Assembly: GCF_018977255.1 (NCBI RefSeq) | Contig: NW_024704753.1 | Span: 62,001 to 126,000, forward strand | Reading direction: 5' to 3' | From: Callorhinchus milii | Taxonomy: Eukaryota | Length of the DNA stretch: 64,000 nucleotides | Shown here: in pieces, positions 8,634-64,000 of the stretch | Numbering within the stretch: position 1 is the first letter of the stretch | Layout of the letters: the number at the start of each line of letters is the position of its first letter | The notes under the pieces: generated by a model | Database searches by the model: none | What the model was told of the DNA's origin: nothing | What the model saw: only the letters and a program-made list of their open reading frames with translations | Position numbers and translations under genes: made by a program

Positions 8634-32911
<24,278 letters not shown>

Positions 32912-32979
32912 TGCTGAGCTGCAGGAGCACAGACACACACACACACACTGAGCAATGGCAGCCGCAGACACATGGACCC

Positions 32980-33420
32980 TCTCGGCGCCGCGGGAACCAC
33001 ACAGCTACACGTTTACAACCGCGAGAGATGGAAGAATGAGAAACACTCAACACCCCCCACCCCCCGCGCGCGTGTCCCCGTGTGTCTGCCCACCCCCACC
33101 CCCCTCTCTGCCTCACCCCGTGTCTCTCTCCCCCCGAGGCCCCGGGCTCTCTCTCGGGTCCCGTTGCTTTACCGTCTCTGTCGGGGAAAGGCTCCTGTGT
33201 GCTCGAGGGCCTCCCGCGGGCAGCACGTGCCGCTGAGGCGCCTTCAGCCCGGCCCCGGCTCCGAGCTCTTACCTTATTTCGCGGCTCCACGCTCCCGCTC
33301 CAGGCCCCGAATGGCGGCGCCCTGACGCTGATCGACGTCCTCACGTCCATGCGTGACCTCACAAAGCATGCCGGAACTTGTAGTCCGGGTCAATCTATTT
33401 CCTGCGCATGCGTGCCAGCA
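32980..33420 (-). promoter_or_regulatory. DCAF1 CpG-island promoter and non-coding first exon
   Basis: CpG-rich. Candidate first-exon donor AAG|GTAAGA at 33273/33272; the acceptor of the ATG exon is at 32919-32920. Motifs: YY1-like AATGGCGGC (33310-33318), GGACTACAAGTTCC (ZNF143/THAP11 GFY-type, 33373-33386, minus strand) and NRF1 TGCGCATGCG (33403-33412). Confidence 0.75.
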
Positions 33421-38221: not shown

Positions 38222-41200
38222 TTAGCTGCTTTCTCGGACACTCAAGGCCTCCACAGCATTACTGGGTCCCTGAGACACCCCACCAATCACAAAGAGCATA
38301 TTGTCACCTTGGAGACTGGCACAGGAACAACGAGGGCAATTCATTGCTGGTAGACTCTCCCATTTCCTCTTAGTTGGATTAAACCCTTCTACAGACCCAA
38401 GCGGCGATGGTTGGTTTCCTGCAATTGAGATGAAATATAAAATGGGATGATTGGCTATTGAAAGATTATCCCAAATTTGAGATGGGACAGATCAATTATA
38501 TCTCTGTTAATTATTGCAGATGAGATGAAATATCTAGCCTGGAAAAAGGAGATAGAATAGATACTTAGAAAGTAAGAGTATTAAGGGATCGAAAAAAGAG
38601 CAGAGGAATTGAATTAAAGTAAAAACTGCCATAATCTAATAAACACAGCAGGCACAAATAGTTACTTTAAAAGAATTGTCTGCAGATTTCAAATGGTTTC
38701 TATCTGTACAAACCCTCGATTGGCCAGCACCTTGAGATGTCCTCCCGATGTGAAAGGTGCTATAAAAATGCAATCTGTTGTTGTCGTACTAATATACAGA
38801 GCATTCCTATGTCTTTCCTTATCCAGCAGCACCTGGTAATGGGCAATTACAGCCTTTGTATACAGGCAGTTAGAACATTTGTAGGATTGGGATCGTGACT
38901 AGAGGAGGAAAAATAGTATGTCATCCATATACATGTGGAAGTTGATCCCATGTCTGCTGATTGTATCACCAAAATGCAGCATATAAATGAACAAAAGGAG
39001 GAAGCCTAGAAACAGCCTTGCAGTAAAACCATAATCAAAGCACTAGATGGCATGTCCTGTTCCCCAGACAGGCTTGCTGAGCCCTGACTGTCTGTCCACT
39101 TTGGCTGACTGGAGTTTACTTCCCCAGAGTCTGTTATGTGTTGAACAAAATCAGTCATCATTTATGGCTGCATAGTTGATAGTAGTATTTTAAACTATAT
39201 CTATGACAAAGATTTACAAAGAATGTAAAGCATGGAAACAGGACACTCAGCCTAACCAGTACTTTCTGCTGTTTATACTCCACATGAGTTTCCGTCCATT
39301 CTTTACTCCTTTCCTATAATCTATTCCCCTCTCCCTTGTGTGAGGATTGAGATTCCTCTTGAACACATTTATACTATCTGATTCAACCATTGCTTCAGGC
39401 AGCAAGTTCCACATTCTCACTACCCTCTCCGTGAAGTACTTCCTCCTAAATTCTCTTTTATGTTTTATGAAAGCATTGAAAAATTATATTTTGAGACTCA
39501 GACAAAGTAAGAATCAGGGCTATGTCCTGACAAATGGCCTGATGAAAATGTGCAGCTCATATGTAGTGATACCTAAACCTCCAGCAGCAACCACTCGACC
39601 TCCAACATAACCCACAGCAAAGTCTGCTCGTTTCTCTCTCATCCGTGTGCAGCGGGACTGCTTGGTCCAAAGCCCTGAAAAAAACAAAATTAATATTTAT
39701 AAACTTTCAAATGTAGTGATATTTGTAATGCAAGGGTTTTCAAAATTATGAAAATTTTAATAGGGGGAAATGGCAGATAAATGGAATTGGAAGGATTGCT
39801 CTTAAAAGAGCAGCACAGACACAATGGTTCTAATAGCCTTCTTCTGTGCTGTAAATTTCTATGGTTCTGTGGTAAATATAGAGAAAGACTATCAACTAAT
39901 TAATGCGTCATATAAAAAAAAACTGAGGGATATTACTAAAAGAAAAAAGGGAAATTAGAAGCAGTTTTATTGTACAGTCATTAGAATTTGGAATACTTCT
40001 CTACAAATGGCTGTTGTAGCCAAATTGGTAACAACTATTTAAAAGAGAATTGGATGATGACATGAGAAAATAAAATTGAAGGGGATAAGAATAATATTAG
40101 AGCCAATTGTTTCAATTGATAAATGAGCACCAGTACAGGCACAATGGGGAAAGAGGAGGGGAATGAGATAAGTACAGATAGCTCCAGGTTTTAGGAGATC
40201 TTAGTCACTTCAGTTACCATGGTAGCACAATTTCATTATTTTAGGTAACATGATGAATTCACTGTGGGCTGGAGCATTTATGACAAAACAGACTAAAAGT
40301 CTTCCCAGCTCCACCATGCACAGCATCCATCTGATCCTAAACTCTGCCGCCCACATACAACAACAAGATTCCATTTATAAAGCGCCTTTCACATCAGGAG
40401 GACGTCCCAAGGCGCTGCATACACACCCACTCTAAATTCCATACCCCCATTATACCAGTTCTAGCCAAACTCCATTGGCTCCCTATCACCAAATTGATCG
40501 ATTTCAAGATCCTCACACTCATTTTCAAATCCCTTCATGCCCTGGCACTTCCCTACCTCTACGACCCGCTTACTCCCCAACCCTCAATCCGCTGCCTCCG
40601 CACGACTGGCTCCAGCCTTCTCCATGTCCCTTGTGTCCTCTGTTCCGCCATTGGTGGCTGCTCTTTCAGTCACTACACAACAAAACTCTGGAACACTCTT
40701 CTCCTCTCCCTCTGCCTTGTCCCTTCCTTCCTTAAATGCAAGTTATTGTTAAATGATAGTTGTTGTTTGAGATTTCGCAATTATTCACTAATATCTTTAC
40801 TTTGTGGAACATCAAATAGCTTCCTTTCAAATATCTATTTGCAATAATAGCTGGTCTATACCTATTTCCGAGGTGAATGCAGGATACTGGAACTCACTGA
40901 AATCAGATAATCTAACACATTGACTGGATTCCATAAGATGGCTGAAGGCTATCTCTCCATTGAAGTGTAAACATCAGTACAATTCATAGAACTGTGCAAG
41001 AATGACCTTAACAGGGGTAATATATGTCATATTTAATCAACCCAAGAAAGTCTGTGCGTAGGAGGGCCAGCCTGAAACGCAACATTGAACAATGTACTCT
41101 GTGTCTCCACTTTTCTACCAGGGTAGCATGAGATACTACAACAACAACAACAAAATTACATTTGTAAAGCGTCTTTTTTGTCAGGAGGATGTCCCAAGGC

Positions 41201-44200
41201 GCTGGACAGTCAGAGTTTCGGACCCGAGCTGGGGGTCGGGATCGGAGAGGATGGAGGGCAGTGGAGGAAGCAGGGTGATCAAACGCACGGTCGAAAAGGA
41301 GGGTCTCGAGACGGGTCTTGAAGGTGGCAAGGGAGGGGGCGAGGCGGAGGGGGTGCCGGGTGGAGTTCCAGAGGGTGGGGGCAGAGTGGCAGAAGGCCCG
41401 CCCGCCAATAGTGGAGAGAGCAAGGCAAGGGACGTGAAGCAAGCCGGAGCCTGCTGAGTAGAAGGAGCGAGCAGGATGGTAGGGTGTTAGGAGGTCACAG
41501 AGGTCGGGGGCAGGAAGACCATGGAGGGCTTTGAAGGTGAGGATCATGAGCTTGAACTGTATCCTCTGTGTGAAGGGAAGCCAGTGGAGTCAGGCGAGGA
41601 TGGGAGTGATAGGGTCGCGGAGCCTGGTGCGGGAGAGGACACGGGCTGCAGAGTTCTGGATGATCTGCAGCCTATGGAGGGAGGAGTTGGGGAGGCCGAC
41701 AAGCAATGCGGTTACATAGTCAGGCCTCGATGTAATGAAAGCATGTATGAGGTCTTGGTGGCCTCCGGTGTGCAACCATGGATGGTGATGCTGTCAGCGC
41801 CTGAGGTGAGGAGGCGCTGTCAGGAGCCAATCAGGAGAGCCTCGGTCTTGTTGACATTCAACTGAAGGAAGTTTGCTCTCATCCAGGACTTGATGTTTGA
41901 CAGACATTCTGTCAGAACAGCAGTGGTCCTGGAGTCAAGGGTGGAGGCAGCTGGGTGTCATCCGCATACATGTGGAAGTTGGCCCCACATCTGCAGATGA
42001 TGTCACCAAGAGGGACTCTGGATATCAAAGAAAGCATTGCAAGAGTTGTGGCCATACATAGCCAGAGTGCAGTGGTGAGTTTACTAATTTTGCCTCTACT
42101 TGATGACCAAGGCTCTGCAGTGTTTGTGTCCTGAGAGGAGCCTTCAGGTGTGGCCCCCTATTGACAGCCCCACACTTTGCAACTCACATAGCAAATGCAT
42201 TTCTTGACCTGTACTCCCTTGTCTCTGTACTCCCTCTACCAAGTGCTCTGAGGGTTGCTATATAAGTGCAAGTTGTTGTTGTCTCCTTTCGTGATCCCCA
42301 TGTTTTTGGTGCTGGAGCTCCTGTGTCTCCTGTGTCTCCTGGGTTGAAACTGGACCTGCACATTTCCCAATTCTAAGAACAGAATGAAAGGTCTCAAGTG
42401 CTCCTGAGTATTACAGATTTCTAACAATAATCCTTGCATTTCATATAGCGCCTCACAGTCAATAATTATCACAGTGCTCTGTACCTCACTCCAACCTTGT
42501 GCTTCACAATAGACATCTTATTCCCAGTCTCAGCTCATTGCTGTCGCTAGTGCCAAGCAGAAGTCAAGTGGTTTCCCACAGCAGGGAACTGTTCTTATTG
42601 TGTCTTGGCCAGCCAGGTCAATGTGGCATTGGCAGAGGTTTGGGAATAATAACACATTGATATAGTGCCTTTCAAGTCAGGAGGATGTCCCAATGCGCTG
42701 GAATAAGTTGCCTCAATAAGTAATGCAACCTGCTCCACTCAGTTGCAGTTAAGTGTATCGACCAGATATGAAAAGGGAAATTAGAGGTCATTCCGCCTTG
42801 AATGAAACAATAATAATAATCCTTGCATTTGATATAGCGCCTTCTCACTTCTTCGAGACACCCTAAAGCGCGTCACAGAATATACTGTAAAATGAATTGA
42901 CTTTACAAGGCTAGAAAAAGAGATTAAACATTTAACTTGCCTTGATCTGTGTCAAACACTTCCACTGTATTGACAAAGTGTGGCCGGGAGTAGAAGTTGT
43001 GGGGGCCTGGCTGCTGAAGCCCTCCCAAGCTGTAAAAGCATTTCTCCGTCATGGTACAATTTGCAAATGCCCGCCGGCTAGGAATGCTGGGGTATCGGGT
43101 CCAGCTTCGTGTTTCCAGATCCAAGGACTCAAAAGCTGTCACAGGAAGTTTACTCTGCCTTCCTCCTAACAACAAATAGAGGTTTAGGTCACTTTCCTTG
43201 CTCTGTATACTTTTTCTGGACACAAGTTTATTTCTTGGAGACCTCCTGTTATTGAATGATCTAAAACTATTCCCCAAATCTTGAGTGAAGTAAAGCACAC
43301 TTTGCCAGCTTTATGTTCTTTTAACAATTTCTGAATGTATTGTTTGAATGAACTGTGAATATATGTTACGGTGAGATTAAACTGTTATTAAATTCAGGAC
43401 AATCATATTTTGTTTTACTTCAAAGTGGACAAACGAACAGGGCTCACCAAACTCATCTACAAATCCCTTCATGCTCTGGCACCTCCCTACTTCTCACACC
43501 ATGCCAAATGTCACCTACCCCTGCTCGAAGTCAGGCTCTGTCACTGTTAAGAGCTCCGAGACTCTATCCTGCGTGAAGGGCGCGATATAAATGCAAGTTG
43601 AGTTGTTGCTGTATTGTTAGTCAGAACTGCCTGAGGTTACACATATGTTGGTATTAGCTGATGAAAGATAGTTTCATTTTAAGATAAACATGGGATATGA
43701 CTATCATTCATCATTGTTTCTGTGGCTAGCATTGCATTACCATGCATATATAGCACACAATACTTACATGACTTCAGTGTTAGATCTAGAGAGGTGATAA
43801 TAGTATTGGATACAATAATTAATGCAAACTATGCAAACTCCCTGCTTGTCAGCCTCCCCAACTCTTCCCTGCATAGGTTGCAAATCATCTAGAACTCTGC
43901 AGCCCGTGTCCTCTCCCTCACCAGGCTCTGTGACCCTATCACCCCTATCCTCTCCAGACTCCACTGGATTCCAATCACATAGAGAATACAGTTCAAGATC
44001 CTGGTCCTTACCTTCAAAGCTCTCCATGGGCTCACTCCCTCCTACGTCTGCGACCTCCTAACCTGCTCCCTCCGCTCAGCGGGCTCCAGCCTGCTTCACA
44101 TCTCCCGCCTCGCCCACCCCACTGTTGGTGGGAGAGCCTTCTGCCACTCTGCCCCTGCCCTCTGGAACTCCATCCTGCAGTCCCTCCACCTCGTCCCCTC

Positions 44201-47200
44201 CCTTGCCTCCTTCAAGACCCATTTCAAGACCCTCCTCTTTGACTGCCGTTTTGGTGACCCTCCTTCCCCCCCTGCCCTCCACCCTCCCCGATCCCAACCC
44301 CCAGCTCGGGTCCGAACCACTGACTGTCCAGTGCCTTGGGATGTCCTCTCAACATGAAAGGTGCTATACACATGTAATTTTGTTGTTGCTGTTGTTGATG
44401 GTATGCTGGCACATTTAATTAATATAATTTTGCAAGCACTCTGGACACTAATGTTGATATTATCGTTACGCTCAGTATTGATTTCCTGAATGTTAGATGT
44501 GAAAATCTGAATGAACTCTGGATCTAAAAATGGCTCGCACTGAAACAGACAGCTGTTCAGCAGCAAGAGTTGTTTTACACTCTACACCATGAGAGCAAGG
44601 GCTGGGCATTTACCTAGGACATAGATCTTATTGCCCCGCAGGAAAGCAGATGCTGCATATTGTGGAGTAGGCATCGGTGGCAGAGATTGCCATTGATCTC
44701 TGGCTGGATCATAAAGACGGACCAGTGCCTGTGGAGCTGCATCTGAGCCCATCCCTCCAAGGGCGAACACTTTGTCATCTGAAACAAAGCATAAGTATAA
44801 TCTTAGAGTTGATCAAGACAATCTGGGAATGACATTATTATAGTTGCATCAAATACTGTACTGGATCCAGGAGCCGAGCACCTCATCCCTGGCTCTTCAT
44901 CCCCCAAACCCTCAACTGTCCAGCTTCCTGTGACGTCCTCCTGATGTAAAGGTCCTATATTAATGTAATTTGTTGTACCAGTATAGTTAAGATGATTAAC
45001 AGGTAACAAATCTACATTTTAACTAGTACCACTAACATTAACTAATACCTACAACACCAACTGCATCACTCACATCCATGGTCATTCCCTCGACCTGGTG
45101 ATTATCTGGGGACGCACCATCTCGGACATCACCATCACCAATAAAGCCATTATTTCGTCTCCCTTAACTCTTTCATCCCATTCCCTGCTACTCAACCCAC
45201 TTCTATCTCCTACCGCCCCTGTAAAATAAATTGCTGCTCCCTCCCTCCGTCTTTTCCGCCCTCGAGTCATCCAAACTACTGCCGTAACGACCTCACCTCC
45301 TCAGTCACTCTCCTTCACTACTCCCTCTCTGCTACCCTAGACACACTTGCCCCATCCCTCCTGCACCGCCTTCTACTCCACAAATCCCCTTGGCACACCA
45401 GTCACCTCCACTCACTGACGTCACAAGTGAATGCCACTGAACGCACCTGCCACAAATCCAATCTTACGGTCCATCATCAGATCTGGCTGGACCACATCAA
45501 ATTCTACTGCTCCTATCTATCAATCTACCATTGCCTCAGCTAAATCGTCCTTCTACTCTAAAATTATCTGAGAGGCCAAGGAGAAGTCACAGCGACTCCA
45601 TGGGGCCCCAGAGGACCTTTTCCTCGCTCAAAACTCTGGATAACTAGTCACTGAACCCTTTTAATAATAATCCTTGCATTTGATATCACAACTTATCACA
45701 TCTTCGAGACGTTTCAAAGAGCTTCACAGAATATACTGTAAAGTGAACAGACTGTATATTTTGTGGGCGAAACATGGCAGTCAATTTTCCCTTGGAGTGA
45801 TGAGTTATCAGGAGTTTAATGTGTATTACTATTGTAGAGTGTTCAAACAAATCATTCGTATGTGAAAGGTGCCATATAAATGCAAATAGTTGTTGTTCGT
45901 GCTCAATGACAGTGCAAAAAATGGGGGGAAAAAAATTATTCAATGATCCAATTCGGCTATTTCTCAGGATCTGTATTGACTATTTATTATTAGATGTTTA
46001 ATAATCTGGAATTCATATGAATTGGTCAAAAGATGTTCAGTCTAATGAACAAATGGCATGTGTGTAGATGCTCATGTAGAAGGCCAGGTTTAATGTTCTG
46101 CTTTGTTGCTGAACTTCAAAGATCCAACTGCAGGATTCCTAAGGGTTAAAGGATATAATATCTCATTTACTTAAACGAGAGACTTGTGTCGTCTGGTTGT
46201 CAGGGTGTCTCCAAGGAAACAGGTAGTTGGGAAAGAAGAGCAATACAATAATTAGAGCTGATTTGTACTCTCCTCTGGGGGTAGCTTGACCTTTGTGTAT
46301 GCGTGGGAGGAATTGTGTCCTTCATCACAGGAAGCAAACTTTTTCTAAAAAAGCCTGGAAAAATCAGGGCTGAGAGCATTCATCTATTTTCTTTGCAGCA
46401 GAATATTATCTACAGACAATGACATAGGAAAGAATGTGAACACTGGAGAATTCCTTGCATCAAAGCATCAATTCAGTATTTCTGTAGGTCAAAGACGATG
46501 TGAAATCCACCATTTTCTAAGTGCATTCGGTCAACAAAAAGGATTAAAAATCTTTAGATTGATAGATGGATACAATCTGTGGAAAATTGGGATGGGTTTA
46601 CTCCCTGAAATTGTTACTGAGCTTATTCCTGTTCAGATGATCCATTGGGGAATAATCAGTGGAACTTAGTGAGGAGTTGTTCTGAAGCTTATGGGTGGTT
46701 AAGCTGGGGAACCAACGAATGGGCATTGGAAAATCTCTTTCTTCGAGTGAGCCTTTCATCCAGCACCCTCCCACACTGATTTTGCATTCACTCCGACTCT
46801 GTAAAGTGCTTTGAGACAAGAATGTGAAAAGCACTATAAATGTGTGAGTTGTTGTAGCATCATAAATTAATGCCCTTACTGCCAGTCCTTCTGATTCTCA
46901 ATTGATTGGAGCTGGAACAATGCCTGATTATATTGAGGGTACCTTAGAGAGTTGTTTTTGAAAAATCTGTCAAGTCTCAGTTAGGCTTTCGGGAAGAATA
47001 ATTAGAAAAGATGCAAATCAGAGAGCTCTGCCTTCCTTCTAAGCACCAGAGCTCCGTACCTGTTGCTTGCCGTTCGCAAACGCAACTGAAGTCCTTTTTC
47101 CTTTCTTTGAGATTTAGACTGTGTTTACATCTATTTACAGCTGTAGTATGTAAGTGATCCAAATTACTCAAACACACAACAGCCAAATAATAATAATAAT

Positions 47201-50012
47201 CCTTGCATTTGATATAGCGCTTTTCACTTCGGGAGAACGTCCCAAAGCGCTTCACAGAACACACTGTAAAGTGAATTGACTGTATATTTGTGGGCGAACG
47301 CGGCAGCCAATTGCGCACAGCAATGTCCCACAAACAGTCGTAGATTGAAAATGACCAATTTATTATTGTTTGGGTTTTTGGAGGGATTATTATTAGGCTC
47401 TGTGTGGAGTAAGGAAACTTGCCCAAGGTTTCGCCCTCTGCCTGGAATTGAACTCAGGTCTCTCACTTGCAAAGCGAGTGCTCTAACTACTTAGCTACAG
47501 GACTCCTAGAAGGTTTATTGCACACATTTTAAGTTTACAATAAATTTGAGCAGCATGTGACATGGCAAACATTGCTGCACATTACACTCTGCATTTAATT
47601 GTAAAGGAACTGAGACATCTTCTAAGAGCTGCATATTCCTTTCCTTTCAGAAAACCCACCCTACTGTCCTTCTCATCACAGCATCAAGCTTTCTTTTAAC
47701 AAGCCCAAGTATCCTGTCCTCAACCACCCTTAGGCGCTGTACAAATGTAATTTTGTTGTTGTTGCTGGCAACCTGTTCCAGTCATTAATTACTTTCTGGA
47801 TAACTGATTAACACCCAGGTTCCTACTTACTGCTAGGTAAACAGGGGCGTGTGGAGTAAGGTTTCGCCCTGCCCGGGAATCAAACCCGGGTCCTCTCGCT
47901 TGCGAGGTGAGTGCTCGAACCAATACACTACAGGATACATGTATACGCATTTGCACATATATGTCAGTTAAACAAGCACATAAAGTTACAACACTTGGAA
48001 TATCATCAAATATTTACATTTAGGGTGTCAGCCTGGCTCAGTTGGTCGAACCTTCTGAGTCAGTCAGAAAGTTTTGGATTCAAGCCCCACATTGCGTCTT
48101 GGGACATCCTCCTGACGTGAACAGCGCTTTACAAATGTAATTTTATATTGTATTGTATTTGAACTCACAGTTTACGTGATACTCCAAACAGTGCTGGGGT
48201 TTGCTGCATTGTTAGAGATGCTGTCCTTTGAATGTGATACTAAAGATTAAACATCTTAAAGAGTTTCACAGGTGTGAAGTGAGAGACTTGTATTTGTAGG
48301 CAAATAGGGCAATCTTTTTGTACACAGCAAAATTCCACAGTTGTGAAGTGAATGACCAATTCATCTGGGGAATTGTTAGGCAGGACATTTGAAGAAACTC
48401 TATTCTCTTTTCCAACAGTGTCATGAGCTCTCTAAAATTCACCTGAACAAGCAGATGGGATCTCAGCTTAACATTTTATCCAGGAGTCAACAAACCCAGC
48501 AATGCCGTGCTCCTCAGCACTGCACTGGAATGTCGGCCTAGAATGAAAGTCTCAACATGGGGCTTGAACTATGTCCACCTTCTGACATAGTGCTGAGATT
48601 GCTTCCAAGGAGTGCTGAGCCAGTTAGCGATCAAACTTCTATATATTTTTTAACACTTTCTGGGATACATTTTAATTTTATTAAAACTTCAAATTTTAAG
48701 TCTAAGGAAAATTAAATATTAATTTGTTACTTAAAAGTAATCTATTTAAACTCTCATATTTAATACCCAGTTTATGTTAGCCTAAATTTTACAATTTGGA
48801 GTATTTTCAAATTTAGTGCAATAATAATTATAGTCCTATCTTTAAAACAATTAATCAGTCAGTCAGTGAGTCACTCAATTAGAAAAAGTCAGAGAATCAG
48901 TTGGGAGGCTGATGTTAGTTATAGAAATGCTTTACAGCAATTTCATCAAGGCATTTCCCAATCATTTGTACAATCTGGTCAATGGCCAGACAAGTCTTTG
49001 GCAATTCTTTGCTGCCAAAGCAGATTATTTTCTGATTCCTGAGCTGTCTTACATTTCCAACGCTTTTACCAAAGCTCTTCAGGGAAACTGTGTGGCAGGA
49101 AAACAGCAGTTTTGTTTTCTGACTTCCAAGAATTGGCATGACTGCTCCCACAAGGTAGAATTAAAGGATTAAAAAGAATTTTAAGAAAAGGAATCTCAGT
49201 CCAGTGAAAAGCAAGATAAGCCCAGTGTCCTATTTCTTTAAAAGAAATTGCCATTCAGAAACCGTAATAACATTACATTGGTATTGAAGCCTATATCTGT
49301 GTAAAGACAATCCACAATTATGTGGAAGAAATTATATTTCTTGCTATCCAGCAGCCTCAATGGTTATCCATACATATCTGATGCCAAACCCAATCCAATT
49401 GTAAGGTTCAATGAAGGTTGAAACCTTCTGTTGTAAATGATCAGAATTGCCCGACGCTGAAGGCACATTCAATGAAAGTTAAATAGAGTGGTAACAATTT
49501 CAGGCAATTCCCCTCAAGATTCCTTCAATGTATGTATCTACGTCTAGTATAATAACTATGAATTCTGGCCAGCTCACTTTTGAAACCGCTTGTCGTTTCA
49601 ACCTCAAGAATGATTAATAAACATGAGGTGACTTACCTTTCTTTACAGCTGTGATTCCCATTGAAGGTTGTCCTAAAGGTGCCTTCTTCTCCCACTTTCC
49701 TTCATCCATGTTAAACACCTCGAGTGACCCCAGCGGGCTCTGCTCTTCATTCATTCCTCCAATAATGAGGAGTTGTTTGCTCAGAACCACTGCTGCTGCC
49801 CCGGCACGAGGAGTGGGCATTGGTGGGAGCCCGGTCCATTTCTGACTAACGACATCCAACATTTCAACTTTGTCCAGGGGCAATCCTGTCTCGCTACAGC
49901 CCCCCAGAACAAAGACTTGCCCATCTTGGTAAAGTGCAGTGCAGTATACACGCCGAGTAGACATTGAAGGGAATACTTCCCAATGCATCGTCTTTACAGC
50001 AGGCACTGCCAT
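38222..50012 (-). CDS. KLHDC8B: Kelch domain-containing protein 8B, complete CDS, 354 aa
   Basis: Exons 50012-49637, 44778-44614, 43165-42941 (GC donor), 39674-39573 and 38418-38222 (TAA) sum to 1065 nt. Kelch repeats with GG motifs are present. The segments GGRQSKLPVTAFE, GGLQQPGPHNFYSRPHFVNTVE, MREKRADF and GNQPSPLGSVE match KLHDC8B rather than KLHDC8A as I recall them. Confidence 0.93.
40290..40750 (+). mobile_element. Old L2 fragment containing a 58-bp inverted tail-only insertion (40360-40417)
   Basis: Decayed ILNSAA...IDFKILTLIFKSLH...LWNTL sequence. The insert is flanked by CATACA direct repeats (40354-40359 and 40418-40423). Confidence 0.75.
41138..42015 (-). mobile_element. L2 LINE 3' fragment (RT C-terminus to tail)
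   Basis: HMYADDTQ-encoding sequence at about 41950-41975, LHRLQIIQNSAARVLSRTR, ILTFKALHGL, then hairpin and (TTG)n tail. Confidence 0.9.
43825..44400 (+). mobile_element. L2 LINE 3' fragment
   Basis: Homologous to 41138-41720 in the opposite orientation, with tail ...TGTAATTTTGTTGTTGCTGTTG. Confidence 0.85.
45055..45570 (+). mobile_element. L2 ORF2 endonuclease/linker fragment
   Basis: ACTCACATCCATGGTCATTCCCTCGACCTGGTGATT encodes THIHGHSLDLVI, the APE-endonuclease TH..GH.LDL motif. The composition is C-rich like other L2 copies. Confidence 0.7.
47186..47506 (-). mobile_element. Young tRNA(Ala)-derived SINE (short subfamily)
   Basis: Full-length copy nearly identical to the other three. Confidence 0.9.
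47795..47938 (-). mobile_element. 5' half of a long-subfamily tRNA-SINE
   Basis: tRNA head followed by CCTTACTCCACACGCCCCTGTTTACCTAGCAGTAAGTAGGAACCTGGG, the module also seen at about 36560-36625 and 54322-54380. Confidence 0.7.
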
Positions 50013-50999
50013 CCCTTAAATAACTTAACTAGTAGATGCCAGTCTCACTGAGTCTCCACAGAACATGAAGTTCCATTATTCAGATATTATTCCAGAGTAT
50101 TGAAACAGCATTCGCCAAACTTGACATATGACCAATAACTCATTGGAAAGATAACTGGAAACACTGGGATTTCACTGAATCCAATCTTAACATTGATTTA
50201 AATGCAGGTTCTGGGAGGACTGTTGGTCTTCTATGTGTACGAGTCCAAGGACAAGATGCGCCAGTGGATGTCTGAGGGAGCAGGAGGAGCACAAAATCTC
50301 AATTCTGTGTTTCAACTCAAATTCTTCTCAGGCAGGTTCACCTTCGACCTTCATAACATAAGAAATAGAATAGATATCACAACTGGAATTCCTACTCTCA
50401 GACTTTACTCAGATGGATAATAATAACATTTCAATTGGACAAATTATTTGGATATCTGTGCTAAAATACCTCAGTACCTAAATACAAATAGGGTAGTACC
50501 TGAAAACATAAATCCAGAGCAAAAAATGTTAGCGATATTTTTTCTCATTTGGGAAGACACAAAAGTCTCTTTTATCCCAAAATGTTACACTTCAGCATTG
50601 TGATGATCCACTTCAAATGATTTGTCTCATCTACTTTGCCCTTTCGTCCCTAAATACTATTAAAACTAGATAGAGTAATAAAAATGGATTCCCCTTTCAT
50701 TACCACAAAGATCTATTTAGTTTATTTTAGGCTTAATCCTAGACTAAAGTTTGTTCAAATAAATATGGGTCTAAACTGACTCAAAGATAAGGTTGCTTAT
50801 TTTACGTTTCAAAAAAGTATATTTTAAAAGAAACGTTGTTGTGAAACAATGCAGTGGATTATTTTTCTGTAAATGTCTGTACACAGGTAATAAAGTTGGA
50901 GAGGAGCACTAAGAAAGTTACGCTATTTATGTAGATTAATATACCTGGCAATAACACCATTACATGTGAACATCCAGTCGGCTCCACAGCTGCAGCTCT

Positions 51000-55512: not shown

Positions 55513-58500
55513 TCAGCTAGTTGTCGATTTGTCTGAGGTTGTTACGGCATCTTGAGCAGCACATTGCGCTGTGTATTTGATAAAATTCTCCTCACAATGC
55601 TGCACGCACTTGATGAAGTAATTCCGATCACATATGGCCTTCACAAGGTTTGTCTGAACCAGACAAATGTTATACAGCTCTGCAGTGGGAGCAATTCTGA
55701 TTCCATCCTTGACAAATACCTGTTTTAAACGCAAAGTGACATTGTTGGTTTCAATCTAAATAATAACTGCAGGTGGTTGTAATATAAATTGAATAGATCA
55801 CAAACATTTCACCAAGAATGGAGAGTTGCAGCTCTCCATTCAATCTAAATTCAAATTCAATCTAAAACACATTGGGTGATATAAAAATACAATTAATTAT
55901 TAATATGATGTAACAAAGTACCACTATAAGAAAAAATATGGACCACTGACAAACCTAGAATGTAGACCATGAGTTAACACTAAATGTGCTGATGAGGCTG
56001 ATTTGTTTAATGGGATAATGGGATTAATGAGACTGATTTGTACGTTACAACCTTTTATTGTTTTGATAAATGGGACTGTTATTAAAATTAATATATTTCA
56101 TATCAATGTGGCATGACCACGATACCTGTGGATTGACAATGCTGTCAGAATCATTCAGACGGATATTATCATCTATGAAGATATGATGTACACCAGTGTG
56201 GGAAGGATCAATCCACAATGGCTTACCGCCTCTGTTTGAATAATTATTGCGAGCCCACCTTGAAAAAAACACAGAATGTGCAAACTGTAAATTTAGTGTT
56301 CAGCTTGGACTGAGAAATCACAACCGCATGGACGCTTTGAATCACAGTTAGGCAATTTGGTAAGAAATTATTAAGCTATTAGTTATTTATTATTAGGTAT
56401 TTGTGGAGTCCTGTAGCACAGTGGTTAGAGCACTCGCTTTGCAAGCGAGAAACCTGAGTTCAATTCCAGGCAGAGAGCGAAACCTCGGGCAAGTTTCCTT
56501 ACTCCACACAGAGCCTAATAATATTCCCTCCAAAACCCAAAACAATAATAAATTGGTCATTTTCAATCTACGACTGGTTGTGGGACATTGCTGTGCGCCA
56601 TTGGCTGCCGCGTTCGCCCACAAATATACAGTCAATTCACTTTACAGTGTGTTCTGTGAAGCGCTTTGGGACGTCCTCCCGACGTGAAAAGCGCTATATC
56701 AAATGCAAGGATTATTCTTATTCTTATTATTTAAGGCATGTCACTAATAACTTAGTCCAGCCACCCAGTTGTTAACTATTTCTCATAATCACTAATAATA
56801 GTTGGGACTCCTCCCAACGTGAGAAGCGCTATACAAATGTAATTTTTTGTAGTTGTTTCATTTCATTATTATTAAACTGTGCGATTGTCAAAGTAAATAT
56901 AATTATCTGTATTCAATGGGGTAATCTAATGCTAAACGTAGGAACAAGAGGTTCTTTAATTCCTCCCGTCAGTTTATTAGGTCATTGCAGATCTTTTAGT
57001 ACCATTTCGTCATACCTGTTAGTACCCCTAATTTCCAGTATCTATCTCTAAACATAACAAAAGCAGGTAAATTTAGGACTATTGTTTTGCCCAAAATTAG
57101 ATGTAAACTTTCTCTTTAGAATTCCAGAAGTGCATGTTAAAGTTAACTATTGCCATAATACAATATTAAAATGCAATTAGCATCCAATAAGTACCAGAGG
57201 TGAGGTAGTATTTGGCTGAGTCCACTTTTACTAACTCTATAGCATATTGCCAAGATGCAAATTGGCATGTGAGAAATTGCGTATCCGAGTTGTCACAGAA
57301 CACTTATGTTCATTATAAATCACCAGTTCCTTATTAGCGCTATTCTACTTGTGCTTTAATAGATTTACCCATTACTCTGACTGAATGCAAAAATATTTTG
57401 CACATTGCACTGAAAATTGAAATAAAAATACTCCATAACTCACCAGTCAAAATGATCCTGAAAACCTACAATTCCCTTCAACGAGGAAAAGTAATTATAG
57501 AGGCCTCTGCTCTCTGATTTTAAAGAAATTTGATCAGATCCTACAGTCAGAACCACATTATCTGGACTGCAGCGGATCCGTCCCTCGACCATGCTGATTG
57601 GAAGCTAGAGAAAAAAATAGTGAAAACTTTATTTATTAGTTGGCTTAACCCGATAAAAATGCAACAAAGCTGGCTAGTGGGAAAATACACCACCTGATGC
57701 ATTTACCTATTCAGGTTAGAAGGTTGTAAATTTGATTCTACAGTAAGTAATAATAATCCTTATATTTGATATAGCGCCTCTCATGTAAGGACAGCTCAAA
57801 GCACTTCCCGGGATTTACTATGAAGTGTAGTGACTGCGTATTTTATAGGCAAACATGGCAAACAACCTGTGCACAGCACCAATATTTAGGTGCAACGAGT
57901 AGAATGGCATTCTACTATGCTCTAATGTCTAAGATTTATTTACTTCTAACTTCACTTACTTGCTTCATTTGCAGATGTTTATATTCAGGGTGATTGCCTG
58001 ACAGGGCAAACTGAATTGTTTCCAAAGTTCTGCACAGATCTGTCCCAAACGTTCGAAATATTATTGCAAATTCTCTATTCTGTGATAACAAGTCATCAAT
58101 GAACTCGAAAAAAGCTGGTAGGATCCAGTGATAGTGTTTCCCATCCTCTCCAGTAGTAGACAGTAGCTCATCATATGGATTTTGCCATTCCAGTTTCTGC
58201 AGACAGTCACTGTGAATCTTTTTAAAGGGTTGTCCATCAGCCGTCTCTGTGAAGTCCAGCACCCTCCCAAACTGTGAATAATAGCTCACAGCACCATCGC
58301 AAGGAGGGTTTAGAGAGAGTACACTACTTAGCCATTCCCACCTGCCTGAAATAAAAGTTAAATCAGAGTTAGTTGAACTTTGTTGTCAATGCTGCCTCCA
58401 GTTCAATTCAGTCAGGGAGTAATGTTAGGAAAGCGACTCTGATAGAGGTGTTTGAAATCATGTGGAAAATAGGGAAAAATGAAATCCACTGATCAATAAA

Positions 58501-60704
58501 TCAGTAACAAGACATAAATTTAAGATCATTATTAAATTTAAATATTATTATTATTGTCATGACCAAAAGGCAAAGGGAGAGTATGTTTTTTTGATAAACA
58601 ATTCTTTACATACAATTATTAAAATAAAATTACTCACTCAATGGCTTTTTGTGGGACATTTCTGTGCGCAAATTAGCTGCCATGTTTGTCCACAAAATAT
58701 ACGGTCACTCCACTTTACAGTGTATCCTGTGAAGTGCTTTGAGACACCCAGACAAGGTGATAAGGTGCTATATCAAATGCAAAAATTATTATGTTTATTA
58801 TGAGGACATGGAATGCCTCACCGTAATAGCTTTTTAAAGGAAATTAGAAAATGTTTGAAATAAGGTATTAAAAGTGTTTTGGGGTAGAAGAGCAGGGGAA
58901 TAGGACTAAACAGGAGTTCTTTCAGAGACGGCACCGGCATTACGCCTCCTCTTATGCTGTACAATTTTGATCTTAAGTTCTATACTTAAAAAACTCACAT
59001 GTTCTCTCTTCCATCAGGGTGCCTCTAAAACAAATGTTAAGACTCACTCGTCTGTAACTTCCTGGGTGATCATTTTGCCCGCTTTTGTAAATTGGCACCA
59101 CTCCCATTTCCATTGAATTCAACAACTTGCACTTGTATAGAGGCAGGGTAGCATCTCAGAGCGGAGCCCGACTCCAAGCCGGGGTGAGGGAGCGATAAGC
59201 ACGGTCGCACAGGCAAGTTTTCAGATGGGACTCTGAGAGTATTCCAGAGTTTTGGGGCGTAGTGGCTGAAAGCACGATCTCCAATGGTGAGGCGGTGGGT
59301 GTGCGAGGGACGAGCAGGAGGCTGATGCCAGTCAAACGGAGGTTCTGGATGGTGGATTGAGGAGTGAGGAGGTCAAGAGAGATAGGGAGGTGCCGGGAGT
59401 GAATGGAATTGAATACAAGAATGAGGATCTTGAAATTGATCCATTCGGTGATGGAGAGCCAGTGGAGCCTGGGCCAGACTTTGGTCCAGGTCAGTATGCG
59501 GGCAGCAGAGTTTTGAATGAGCTGATTTTGTGAATGGTGGAGCTTGGGAGACCAGCAAAAAGTGTGTTGGAATAATTCAAGCAGGAGGTGATTCCTCCCA
59601 TTTGGATTACTCCAACTCCTACATGAATAATTCATGAAATAAGTTTTTTATACTTGAAATTTGAAAGTAACTGTAATGTGTCACGGCCAATATTTCTAAT
59701 TCAAATTCAACGCATTAATTCCAATTTATTAAGCTACTCATTTAATTGTTTGTGAAATGTTGCTGACACAAATTAGCTGCCATATTTGCCTACATATGAT
59801 TCATTGCACTTCAAGGTGTGCTCAAGAGTAGCTTTTTTAAGTGAGATGTAAACACAGAGAGGGAGTTCCAGAGGTAAAGGGCAAAGTTGCTGGGGACATG
59901 TATCAAGCTCAAATATCTGAGCAAAGCGGGCAAGCAGAAAAGTGGGGTAGAAGATGAAGTGATAGGCATGCAGTTTCCTCCAGGTGAGGATACAGACACC
60001 AGAGGTTTGCATCAGCTGGTGAAACTGGGGAAGCAGCAAGGAATGGGTTTGAGACATTTAGACGAGAAGCAACAAAGGTGAGGGTTTCAAAAGCAATTGG
60101 TATGAGATACGGGCAGAGGCAGATAGTGGAGAAAGGTGAATGAAAGGTTCAAATGAGAAAGTGCTATAAAGAATGGAAGTATTATTAATCATCGTAAAAC
60201 AAGTATGTCATGCTCTAAATGAACACAACCCATATTGCAATTGCTCTTTTGTAAGCTTCTCCACAGCTGTACTACAAAGTTTGGTTCCTGTTGACAGGTT
60301 CTCCACCACCAAATGAAACGTGTTCAAAGAACGTAGCTGGATTTAAACATTAGTGGAGGATGGCATTTTTTAATCTTTGCTTTCTGCTAGTCTCATTACT
60401 TACCACTGAATTCCACTATATTAATTTTATGTGTTCTATCTCTGCAGATTTGTAATGATTGCTGCTTCTGGCACTTACCTATCTGGTTCATCCGACCCCA
60501 GGTCACAGTGGATAGAAAGGAATTAAGAGCATTGCTGGGTCCCTGGCCAGTGACTGTGTCACACAGTAGGATTGTGTTATTTAAATCCAGATGCACAATC
60601 AGTTTTGTTTTTTTGCAATTTAAAGTTGTGGGAATCTCAGTAACTGTTCGGCTTGAATCAGATTTCATATCTTCCATATCTGGATTTGAAAGGAGTGATG
60701 CCAT
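55513..60704 (-). CDS. Uncharacterised HAD-superfamily-like protein, 370 aa (resembles the zebrafish si:dkey-32e6.3 family as I recall it)
   Basis: Exons 60704-60479, 58345-57960, 57604-57444, 56258-56126 and 55719-55513 (TGA) are all GT-AG, phase-consistent, total 1113 nt and have no internal stops. Motifs: KLIVHLDLNNTIL, FAIIFRTFGTD, GGKPLW, HIFIDDNI. The acceptor of the ATG exon is at 60814-60815; a minus-strand AATAAA lies at 55122-55127. Confidence 0.88.
56405..56730 (+). mobile_element. Young tRNA(Ala)-derived SINE (short subfamily), used here as the reference copy
   Basis: A-box TAGCACAGTGG (56414-56424), anticodon-like arm CTCGC-TTTGCAA-GCGAG (56433-56449), B-box GTTCAATTCC, Deu-like GTGGGACATTGCTGTGCGC, tail hairpin at 56660-56695 and a TTA-rich end. 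Confidence 0.92.
59120..59590 (-). mobile_element. L2 3' fragment (old)
   Basis: Translation includes QLIQNSAARILT...LHWLSITEWINFKILILVFNSIH. Confidence 0.75.
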
Positions 60705-60970
60705 TTGTGGAGTTTAATTCTATTTAATTCTTAATTCTAATCAAAAGATTTTTCAGCCGAGATTCCGAGTTTCACGAGATCCAAACATGTGGATTGTGTC
60801 CACGTCCCAATCGCTGTCAACAAAAGAAAAGTCGGTGAAGCTCTGCAAACATCAGAACAATTGTAATTAGTTCAGTTGTTTGTTTACTTTTTAGGATCAA
60901 CATTTATATATAACGTCCCTCAGCGGAGCGGAGCGAGAGGGGGAGGCCGGGGGCGTGGATCCGGGGCGCG

Positions 60971-61487
60971 GGCCCGGTGTGGGGGGGGGGGCCCGGTGTG
61001 GGGGGGGGGGGGCGGGGGGGGGCCGGTGTGGGGGGCGGGGGGGCCCGGTGTGGGGGCCCGGTGTGGGGGGGGGGCCCGCTGTGGGGGGCGGGGTCCCGGT
61101 GTGGGGGGGCCCGGTGTGGGGGGCGGGGCCCGGTGTGGGGGGGCCCGGTGTGGGGGGCGGGGGGGCCCGGTGTGGGGGGGCCCGGTGTGGGGGGGGGGGC
61201 CCGGTGTGGGGGGGCCCGGTGTGGGGGCGGGGGGGCCCGGTGTGGGGGGCGGGGGGGCCCGGTGTGGGGGGGCCCGGTGTGGGGGGCGGGGTCCCGGTGT
61301 GGGGGGTCCGGTGTGGGGGCGGGGGGGGCCCGGTGTGGGGGGCCCGGTGTGGGGGGGGGGGCCCGGTGTGGGGGGCGGGGGGCCCGGTGTGGGGGGGGGC
61401 CCGGTGTGGGGGGCGGGGGGGCCCGGTGTGGGGGGGCCCGGTGTGGGGGGCGGGGTCCCGGTGTGGGGGGCGGGGTGGTCCCGGTGT
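60971..61487 (+). repeat. G-rich minisatellite, about 28 units of (G)n-CCCGGTGT-(G)n with optional CGGGG
   Basis: I count 27 CCGGTGT cores plus one CCGCTGT variant, separated by variable G runs. The strand G skew is extreme. Confidence 0.95.
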
Positions 61488-61489
61488 AA

Positions 61490-61700
61490 TATTATTTACT
61501 ATAACCGCCAAACCTCTCTCCCGGGCAGATGGCGGGAAGTCGGTGTGCGCATGCGCGTATTGCAGTGTCCGGTGTATCCGGGGGTGTGGCCGGTGACGCT
61601 GTGTGACGCTGCCTCTGATTGGCTGCCGCTGATTGGCTGCCTCACGGCCCGGTTCGCGTATGTGCAGTGACGTCATCAGTCAGCGCCGAAAGGCCCACGT
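61490..61700. promoter_or_regulatory. Bidirectional CpG-island promoter shared by SURF6 (+) and the HAD-like gene (-)
   Basis: YY1-like AGATGGCGG overlapping E2F/ETS-like GGCGGGAAGT (61527-61540), NRF1 TGCGCATGCGC (61546-61556), two ATTGG/CCAAT boxes (61618-61622, 61632-61636) and CRE TGACGTCA (61668-61675). It lies between divergent ATGs at 60704 and 61885. Confidence 0.8.
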
Positions 61701-61742
61701 GCAACTGCAGCCGAGAAGCCGAGCGCGACCCCCGACCCCGAC

Positions 61743-61818
61743 CCGCCGCACCCCCCGACCCCGGGCCGCCGCACCCCCCGACCCCGGGCCGCCGCACCCC
61801 CCGACCCCGGGCCGCCGC
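61743..61818 (+). repeat. Perfect 23-bp tandem repeat, 3.3 copies (CCGCCGCACCCCCCGACCCCGGG)
   Basis: Units at 61743-61765, 61766-61788 and 61789-61811, plus a partial unit at 61812-61818. Confidence 0.92.
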
Positions 61819-61884
61819 CTGTGTCCTGTGAACATCGTCCCGTTTCCTGTTTGAAGCCTCTGAGAGTTGGTTATCGCTGACACA

Positions 61885-64000
61885 ATGGCGGACCTGAGTC
61901 TCGCCGCTAAAGACAAGTACCTACAGCGTCTGGGAAGCAAAGTGTGCGCCGCTCAGCGCCAGGAGCCACACCAGCGAAAACTTGGTAAACATTGTTGCAG
62001 AACCCTATTTCCCAGAGGATTGACTGAGTTTCTGGTGAAACTGGTTCTGGATATTAGATTTCAGTGAATTTGGACAGTGATGTTACAGTAAAGAAGATAT
62101 AGAGATTGGCCGAAAGTATTAATACATGAGATTTGGTTTGTGTTGAAGTTCATGTTACAGAACTGTATAATATCTTTCTAGAAATGCTATCTTCAGGATT
62201 TTTTAAAATATTTGAACATTATAAATATGTAAAAATTATTTACATTTGATATATCACCTGTATTTTTTAAATGTCTCAAATTTATGTATGTTTTCTGACT
62301 ATCCAGTGCCTTGGAAGCCATTTGCAGTTTTACGTCCACCTTAAAAAAAACACTCAAATATTTGTGAAATTAGCATAGATTGTTTCCAGTTAAATATAAA
62401 TTGTTTAAAAAGCTCACAACCAGAGGAATTACCTGAAGTTATACCTTAAAGTGGCTGCTGATTACTAATCAGAAATCATCGCTTTGACCCTGTGTTGGTG
62501 TGTGAACGCCCCCCAAAATTTTTTTTATGTAATTTCTTTAAAATTACAAGTTTCCAGAAAGATGGGCACTGAGGAGAGTCATCAACTTAAAAAGAAAAAA
62601 AGAAAGAAGCAGCCTCTGAAGGAACAGAGAGGTTTTCAGGCAGTGAGAGTCGATCTGTCTAAACCTGCTCAGGTGGGAATAAAAGAAAATCAAAATTTCA
62701 GAGGTGAGAAAATTAAAGGTGAAACATGCATGTTAAAATCCACTTGAGATGTTTATATTTATTTCACAAGTTAAGTACTTCAATTGAGTGCTCTTGCTTT
62801 CTCGTCTTCTCTTGCCTGTTGATAGTGACAGTGTTGTAGAAGTGGATTCCACTCCTGGAAATGTGAATTAATAACACCTGAAAATTTAGAAGGAATTTAC
62901 TTTTCTCAAAAGTTAATTGAAAAAGAAATCCAAGAAAATATACAGCAAATTTCAAACAGATTATTTTTGTATAAATGAGATTTAAAGACGGACCCTGAAA
63001 TGTTATTAATGAGCAAAACCTATTTGTAGACTGTGCCCTCCTTCCCCCCACACCCCACTCTCCCCGATCCTGATCCCCAGCTCAGGTCCAAAACACTAAT
63101 TGTCCAGCACCTTAGGACGTCCTCCCGATGTGAAAGGCGCTATACAATGTAATTTTGTTGTTGTGGAGAGATGCTGAGTTGGTCATATATCCTTTCTATT
63201 CTGCAGTTATTTATTGCAGAACTGACTAATTTTACTTATTATCTGGAAATAATACATGTATTTTTAGAGCTCAGTGTTAGTAAGGTATAAAATGAATTGT
63301 CATTTGCAACTTGTGTAAATAGTGCAGTTAAAAAAATTGAAAACTTCATTCATGTAACTGGGACAATTTATAGTGTATTATTTTATGTCACTACAATGGC
63401 TTAATAATAAAAAAATCTTTCAATTGATATAGCTTATTATGTGGTTGAAACATCTCAAAATGCTCACAGGCTTTACAGTAAAATAAGTGACTTTGTATTT
63501 ATGAGGTTAAGACTGAGCTACGACTGTAGCATTATTATTGCGACAGTTGACCTCTTCTTTTCTCTCACAGTTAGCAAAACAGAATTGGGCTCCTTCTCAG
63601 CGGTAAATCTTCTTCGCCAGAGATTGCATGACAAAATTGAAGAATCCCGTGGACAGGTGAATTCAAAAAATTATGTTTCTGTGAGAAGCAAAGCAATGTC
63701 TTCCTTTCCAGTCGCTGCGTTAGTCGTATTGCATCTTGCCTTTTTTGAAAAAAATCAACATAGAATATATACTTTTTTTGAATAGGTCAACCAGAGAGGC
63801 TTGTCATCTGAAGAATTAAAGAAGTTACGTCTGCGTAGAAAACAGGAACGGGAAAGAAAAAAACGAAAACGAAAAGAATTGCGGATAAAGAAAGAACAGG
63901 AGACATTGCCTCAGGAAGAGTGTGTGGCATCAGACACTCAAAAAGGAGAGACAACGCAGGAGTGCAGGAAAGTGGAGGAGCAAATAATCTTCAATAAAAT
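61885..64000 (+). CDS. SURF6: Surfeit locus protein 6 (nucleolar, RRP14 family), 5' part; continues beyond the window
   Basis: Exons 61885-61984, 62551-62703, 63571-63656 and 63786 to the window end. The translation MADLSLAAKDKYLQRLGSKVC...KKKKRKK...FSAVNLLRQRLHDKIEESRGQ...RLRRKQERERKKRKRKELR...IIFNK parallels SURF6 (SLLAKDAYLQSL, LRQRLHEKIQEARGQ, RRKQERDRKKRKRKELR, LIFNK) as I recall it. Confidence 0.92.

What the first reader, a model, noticed from the sequence alone, without database searches (positions are those of the whole stretch)
55513..60704. Uncharacterised vertebrate HAD-fold enzyme gene with a non-canonical DxN motif
Seen: an intact five-exon 370-aa ORF with the four HAD motifs in order: I (LIVHL-D-L-N-N-T), II (AIIFR-T-FG), III (GG-K-P) and IV (HIFI-DD-N). 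About 130 residues lie between motifs I and II, at the C1-cap position. Established: HAD phosphatases use DxDx(T/V), and the second Asp is the general acid/base; substitutions there mark different chemistry (Thr in P-type ATPases, Ala in phosphonatases, Tyr in haloacid dehalogenases). I recall similar proteins in fish, invertebrates and protists (si:dkey-32e6.3-like) but no mammalian orthologue; this needs checking. Inference: an ancient phosphotransferase or hydrolase of unknown substrate, possibly with a long-lived phospho-aspartate, co-regulated with a ribosome-biogenesis factor. It is the best candidate for undescribed biology in this window.
Basis: partly seen in the sequence, partly recalled or inferred. 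Interest (0 to 1): 0.72.

Follow-up and report, generated by a model that had tools for sequence, protein, structure and literature searches.

The report
Acid-free HAD enzyme missing from placentals
This spliced elephant-shark gene belongs to an old, unstudied enzyme family that keeps the phosphate-cleaving residues of the HAD superfamily but never has the usual acid catalyst, so it likely cuts an activated phosphate from a small metabolite; it is found from bacteria to marsupials but was not found in placental mammals.

The parts
61514..61544 (-). Non-coding first exon (5' end not defined), in the CpG island shared with SURF6
   Evidence: Contig of run X7 joins 61514 to 60813, skipping 700 nt with GT-AG ends on the minus strand; loose end of an X3 contig at 60844 carries the same letters. 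One study.
60970..61471 (.). G-rich minisatellite (unit about GGGGGGGCCCGGTGT, 31 copies) inside the 5' UTR intron
   Evidence: Tandem Repeats Finder
60479..60813 (-). First coding exon: UTR 60813-60705, ATG at 60704, residues 1-75; motif I D40-L-N42-N-T44, D49, start of cap
57960..58345 (-). Coding exon 2: residues 76-204; rest of cap, motif II R173-T174-F-G176-x-D178, H194
57444..57604 (-). Coding exon 3: residues 205-258; beta-meander insert, strand 248-253, D254
56126..56258 (-). Coding exon 4: residues 258-302; W259, motif III K270, motif IV D287-D288-N289
55513..55719 (-). Coding exon 5: residues 303-370 and stop; contigs continue to at least 55358
61545..61831 (.). Candidate bidirectional promoter: NRF1-like 61547, two CCAAT boxes 61618 and 61632, CRE 61668, E-box 61696 (consensus motifs recalled; matches are not evidence of function)
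   Evidence: contig ends at 61544 (-) and 61832 (+) are 288 nt apart
61832..64000 (+). SURF6 gene, head-to-head neighbour, runs past the window end
   Evidence: PF04935 match, E 5.7e-39, starting at window 63810; spliced contigs
58997..59113 (-). Alternative first exon of annotated isoform X2, which lacks motif I; 3' end approximate
   Evidence: P0001; low-depth contigs cover it

Best explanation
The gene encodes a predicted Mg2+-dependent HAD-superfamily hydrolase that likely removes an activated phosphoryl group (phosphoanhydride or P-N bond) from a small, possibly nucleotide-like metabolite. Shown: gene structure, splicing, conservation, absence of Asp at +2. Predicted: HAD core plus a ~105-residue cap at the C1 position. 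Inferred steps: D40 attacks phosphorus to form an aspartyl phosphate; T174 and K270 hold the phosphoryl oxygens; D287/D288 with D40 hold Mg2+; because residue 42 cannot donate a proton, the leaving group must be one that needs little acid help (ADP/NMP-, pyrophosphate- or amine-type); the cap and the D254-x-F-x-x-W259 helix close over the site and select the substrate; water then hydrolyses the intermediate, slowly or helped by D49, D178 or D254. Odds: active small-molecule phosphohydrolase of some kind about 0.75; the activated-substrate version 0.45.
For: Fold: pLDDT 92; D40, T174 and D287/D288 lie at the ends of strands 34-39, 168-174, 281-287. 46 of 50 top VIA rows are HAD-superfamily chains by my reading of the titles, partly recalled. 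Range starts put D40 on D8 and N42 on D10 of beta-PGM (33 to 1) and D40 on D533 of ATP13A1 (33 to 526, title 'D533N'), if strand 1 is ungapped. In beta-PGM D8 is phosphorylated and D10N cannot protonate the leaving group (PMC11283535, passages). Position 42 is never Asp: N319, R48, H4, Q3, G1 of 375; N44, K1 of 45 bacterial. Precedent: LHPP has Ser at +2 and hydrolyses phospholysine, phosphohistidine, pyrophosphate and imidophosphate (PMC11277029, passages). Context in Chlamydiae: fusion to an EEP domain (L163) and to a calcineurin-like phosphoesterase (L162, split pair in L166); LysR gene beside it in 7 of 48 loci, 5 directly divergent, on several branches of the tree, in genomes with 1-3 LysR genes; hydrophobic N-terminal stretch in 24 of 45 bacterial against 14 of 279 mostly eukaryotic sequences (crude hydropathy). 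Neighbours include an ITP/XTPase, PPK2, 5'-nucleotidase, HIT, ATP/ADP translocase and a nucleoside-deaminase-like gene.
Confidence: 0.45

Rival explanations
1. Ordinary phosphomonoesterase (nucleotidase or sugar/lipid-headgroup phosphatase) whose general acid/base has moved from motif I to another conserved residue (D49 on the flap, D178, D254) or to the substrate.
For: Three extra Asp residues are near-invariant in eukaryotes and bacteria; fusion or pairing with phosphoesterases; exported chlamydial forms resemble scavenging acid phosphatases (recalled).
Against: D49 lies where C1 HADs have a hinge Asp and D178 at a helix start (role recalled), so they may be structural; no geometry was measured.
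Confidence: 0.3
2. Phosphotransferase or mutase with a long-lived aspartyl phosphate: D40 is loaded by a nucleotide or acyl phosphate and passes the group to an acceptor.
For: Loss of the base would slow hydrolysis of the intermediate; P-type ATPases, which also lack Asp at +2 (recalled), are among the top fold matches; one dinoflagellate member is fused to two P-loop kinase-like domains.
Against: P-type hits tie with other HADs within 1 Z unit; signal-peptide-like ends in over half of the bacterial members point to a compartment poor in ATP (inference).
Confidence: 0.1
3. Catalytically dead or near-dead Mg-phosphate binder that traps a phosphorylated metabolite, like an engineered D10N mutant, and serves as a sensor.
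For: DxN copies the substrate-trapping mutant of beta-PGM (PMC11283535); EF-hand and Dpy-30 fusions in protists suggest regulatory settings.
Against: The nucleophile, Lys and DD stay fixed from Chlamydiae to marsupials; stand-alone, apparently exported bacterial forms beside LysR genes suit an enzyme better.
Confidence: 0.08
4. Protein phosphatase (phosphohistidine, phosphoarginine or pSer/pThr), akin to baculovirus 38K, FCP/SCP or MDP-1.
For: A baculovirus chain (recalled as 38K), Fcp1, MDP-1 and SCP1 rank 2, 5, 6 and 7; weak atlas leads to NIF and plant EYA-like clusters (0.75-0.76).
Against: Those enzymes are DxD and have little or no cap (recalled); this protein has a large cap, which usually excludes protein substrates.
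Confidence: 0.07

Closest known systems
LHPP (NagD-clade HAD phosphoamidase/pyrophosphatase)
   Same: HAD nucleophile Asp with a non-acidic residue at +2 (Ser in LHPP; PMC11277029, passages); the likely chemical logic.
   Different: Asn/Arg rather than Ser; cap at the C1 position rather than C2 (LHPP cap type recalled); no sequence match; LHPP is not among the listed fold rows.
C1-capped HAD phosphatases and mutases (beta-phosphoglucomutase, HDHD1)
   Different: No acid/base Asp; cap is alpha/beta and unmatched, not a four-helix bundle; extra ~55-residue insert before strand 248-253.
HAD subfamily IIIC-like enzymes (MDP-1, baculovirus 38K, FkbH domain) and FCP/SCP phosphatases
   Different: They are DxD and essentially capless.
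P-type ATPase P domain
   Same: Aspartyl-phosphate site in register; no Asp at +2; large insert after motif I.
   Different: No membrane, N or A domain; the cap alone does not match an N domain.
si:dkey-32e6.3 family (database label only; a PANTHER family PTHR36960 is recalled, not checked)
   Same: This is that gene.
   Different: Records carry no domain or function; the HAD assignment, the Asp-free motif I, the chlamydial and viral branches and the absence from placentals were not found in print in ten searches.

Membership tests
HAD superfamily | Rossmannoid alpha/beta core | tested here: met
HAD superfamily | Nucleophile Asp at the end of strand 1 | tested here: met
   D40 ends strand 34-39, 106 of 106 and 45 of 45 conserved, in register with beta-PGM D8
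HAD superfamily | Motif II Ser/Thr, motif III Lys, motif IV acidic pair | tested here: met
   T/S174 106 of 106, K270 106 of 106, D287 105 and D288 106 of 106
HAD superfamily | The four motifs converge on one Mg site in three dimensions | not testable with these tools
   Model coordinates are not returned; only strand-end positions seen
Canonical HAD phosphatases (DxDxT/V) | Second Asp as general acid/base | tested here: not met
   0 of 375 and 0 of 45 have Asp at +2; role of that Asp from PMC12212127 and PMC11283535 (passages)
Canonical HAD phosphatases (DxDxT/V) | Mg-dependent phosphatase activity through phospho-Asp | not testable with these tools
   Needs assay
C1-capped HAD (subclass I) | Cap inserted between motifs I and II | tested here: met
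   Residues ~46-150 fold as a separate unit; a homologue's cap alone folds at pLDDT 91
C1-capped HAD (subclass I) | Cap of a known type (helical bundle or alpha/beta) | tested here: inconclusive
Any curated Pfam or NCBIfam family | Profile match above cut-off | tested here: not met
   No family matched by more than 1 of 100 aligned members at E<=1 in Pfam or NCBIfam
L-2-haloacid dehalogenases and phosphonatases | Tyr or Ala at +2; no DD Mg site (dehalogenase) or invariant cap Lys (phosphonatase); features recalled | tested here: not met
   +2 is N/R/H/Q; DD intact; no conserved Lys in the cap among columns conserved at 60% or more
P-type ATPases | DKTGT motif, membrane, N and A domains (recalled) | tested here: not met
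   370-aa soluble protein, DLNNT
LHPP/NagD clade | Ser at +2 and C2 cap (cap type recalled) | tested here: not met
   Asn at +2, cap after motif I; 'works like' remains open

The most novel reading that the evidence does not exclude
The family is a separate HAD subclass, with an acid-free motif I and a cap of previously unseen fold, that hydrolyses a phosphoanhydride or P-N metabolite; it moved between protists, Chlamydiae and giant viruses, was kept by every other vertebrate lineage sampled and was lost in the ancestor of placental mammals, so it marks a piece of phosphorus metabolism that humans lack.
Probability: 0.3. Interest if true: 0.75.

Novelty: new variant of a known kind. Interest (0 to 1): 0.58.

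Why it matters
HAD enzymes without the second Asp are few and each does different chemistry. This family has 1557 clusters at 50% identity (E<=0.001), no curated profile and no paper found, probably because it was not found in placental mammals. A natural DxN/DxR enzyme tests directly how phosphoryl transfer works without the canonical acid, its cap may be a new fold, and naming its substrate would name a metabolite handled by fish, birds, marsupials, protists and environmental Chlamydiae but apparently not by humans in this way. Zebrafish, chicken and Xenopus orthologues make it testable now.

Tried and rejected
Sequence searches of PDB with P0110, A2 and A6: only chance hits. Pfam and NCBIfam: none. 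Foldseek against PDB: none at E<=0.001 for the whole model or the cap; absence of a cap match is no proof of a new fold. First scans of viral and prokaryote collections with the animal-weighted alignment found nothing; the protist-weighted one did, so the early blanks were a sensitivity limit. Degenerate DNA patterns in viral contigs gave 4 and 24 loci, all chance matches. Plasmids: no match. No paralogue found in the shark genome with two queries. Ten paper searches: no paper on this gene or family; the four '32e6.3' rows are unrelated by title (listing only). Supplementary tables of zebrafish, chicken or protist screens were not searched and may list the gene. Two papers I wanted were not held. 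No run was on record as RNA; the RNA label is the tool's guess. A cilia role was considered from Dpy-30 and EF-hand fusions and set aside as lineage-specific, since Chlamydiae carry the family. Four look-ups of earlier findings returned nothing. No complex prediction was run, as no binding is claimed.

Full report
Observation. The product is identical to the Callorhinchus milii record si:dkey-32e6.3 isoform X1. Contigs of four runs that the tool guesses to be RNA skip introns 1, 3 and 4, and one 1292-nt contig passes through all five exons. The same contig starts in a non-coding exon at 61544-61514, so the gene has six exons. SURF6 (PF04935) starts on the other strand; contig ends lie 288 nt apart across a CpG-rich stretch. 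No second copy was found in the genome.

Conservation. A profile search found 1557 clusters at E<=0.001, of which I saw the best 150. Of 460 sequences aligned, 375 were kept as full-length (under 70 gaps, a residue in the D40 column). Position 42 is Asn 319, Arg 48, His 4, Gln 3, Gly 1 and never Asp. Among 106 representatives under 60% identity D40, T44, G176, K270 and D288 are invariant, T/S174 is 106 of 106, R173, D254, W259 and D287 105, D49 and D178 101. In the tree the vertebrates form one clade and the Arg forms one derived clade among unnamed, mostly intronless animal-like sequences. What is selected is thus the lack of an acid, not Asn as such.

Range. Orthologues occur in hagfish, sharks, ray-finned fish, coelacanth, amphibians, reptiles and birds. 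A marsupial query gave 193 hits, 120 listed: seven marsupial species and platypus and echidna lead (an eighth marsupial), no placental is listed, and the ten unnamed rows are nearest to fish. The 73 weaker hits were not shown and pseudogenes cannot appear, so loss in placentals is an inference. All mammalian forms with a full C-terminus keep the motifs. Relatives occur in a mussel, dinoflagellates, diatoms and ciliates, a giant-virus contig with DINKT, eight prokaryote genomes, mostly titled Chlamydiae, 46 of 400 genomes of that phylum and 2 of 113 in the class of L121. Chlamydial and vertebrate profiles align end to end (probability 99.5). Of 57 bacterial ORF hits, 45 were unique and at least 280 aa: D40, W259 and K270 45 of 45, Asn at +2 44, Asp 0.

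Context. In Chlamydiae 24 of 45 members have a hydrophobic N-terminal stretch against 14 of 279 mostly eukaryotic sequences (crude hydropathy). A LysR gene lies beside the gene in 7 of 48 loci, directly divergent in five, on several branches, in genomes with 1-3 LysR genes; 0 of 16 control loci had one, which alone is not significant (p 0.12), and shared ancestry inflates the count. One member is fused to an EEP domain, one to a calcineurin-like phosphoesterase that stands as a separate adjacent gene in a relative. Genes for phosphoester and nucleotide turnover are 16 of 176 neighbours against 2 of 98 controls (p 0.017), but 17 against 6 (p 0.22) on a liberal count, and I chose the categories after seeing the target set; this is a hint only. 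Protist members carry Dpy-30, EF-hand or ankyrin plus P-loop fusions.

Mechanism. Established: HAD phosphatases use DxDx(T/V), with the second Asp protonating the leaving group and activating water (PMC12212127, passages); the D10N form of beta-PGM cannot transfer that proton (PMC11283535, passages); LHPP has Ser at +2 and acts on P-N compounds and pyrophosphate (PMC11277029, passages). Inferred: with nucleophile, phosphate-binding residues and Mg site fixed and the acid absent, the enzyme most likely takes a phosphoryl group from a donor with a good leaving group, held under the cap by conserved aromatic and acidic residues, and releases phosphate (0.45). The main rival is a monoesterase with a relocated acid (0.3), then transferase (0.1), dead binder (0.08) and protein phosphatase (0.07).

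The HAD call and the oddity of motif I stand. 'No mammalian orthologue' should read 'none found in placentals'. Co-regulation with SURF6 is untested; a Polypterus gene model fuses USP19 to the 5' side, which suggests another upstream neighbour there.

Novelty. The gene is annotated but functionally blank, and ten literature searches found nothing on it; supplements were not searched. It belongs to the HAD superfamily but fails the defining test of canonical HAD phosphatases and of the other known Asp-free groups. Verdict: new variant of a known kind, interest 0.58.

Noticed in passing
window 61640 onward and G000:C12 about 139,000-158,000 (L113-L116): The SURF6 region is repeated in tandem: window 61640-70000 (extended numbering) matches 87942-96326 at 99.2%, and 64135-70000 matches 77274-83150 at 98.7%; two full PF04935 matches and one partial. 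Recent duplication or assembly artefact; the copy starts inside the shared promoter and leaves out the HAD gene. ITIH-like fragments (recalled) lie in the repeat.
   Followed up: partly
window 14753-33000 (-), 38225-50015 (-); L118: Neighbours: a DCAF1-like gene (LisH match; name recalled), a kelch gene like KLHDC8B (Kelch matches; name recalled) and a NEK4-like kinase further on. From memory these map to human 3p21, where a decayed copy of the HAD gene could be sought.
   Followed up: partly
window 60970-61471 and 61729-61818: Two GC-rich minisatellites flank the shared promoter; the first is G-run rich and may form G-quadruplexes (inference).
   Followed up: no
window 59113 (-): Annotated isoform X2 starts in intron 1 beside a repeat and lacks motif I; it would be inactive or is an annotation artefact.
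   Followed up: partly
window 60844 and 60761-60726 (-): A second splice acceptor for the UTR intron near 60844 (X3 contig) and an 11-codon upstream ORF in the 5' UTR.
   Followed up: no
L121:4989-6101, P0245: A member in a high-GC bacterial genome groups inside the protist clade (support 1.0 with P0245) and occurs in 2 of 113 genomes of its class: likely a separate eukaryote-to-bacterium transfer, untested.
   Followed up: partly
L150:1480-2460, L123:4890-5923: One chlamydial copy has lost motifs II and IV (DLKET, no DD) and another is split over two frames.
   Followed up: no
L165, L169, L176: DUF2608, recalled as another uncharacterised HAD-like family, lies near the gene in three chlamydial loci.
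   Followed up: no
Atlas clusters; P0235: Two ciliate clusters (53 and 56 members) carry a Dpy-30 motif in 96-100% of members, suggesting anchoring of this enzyme in cilia in that lineage; scores 0.81-0.87 are leads only.
   Followed up: no
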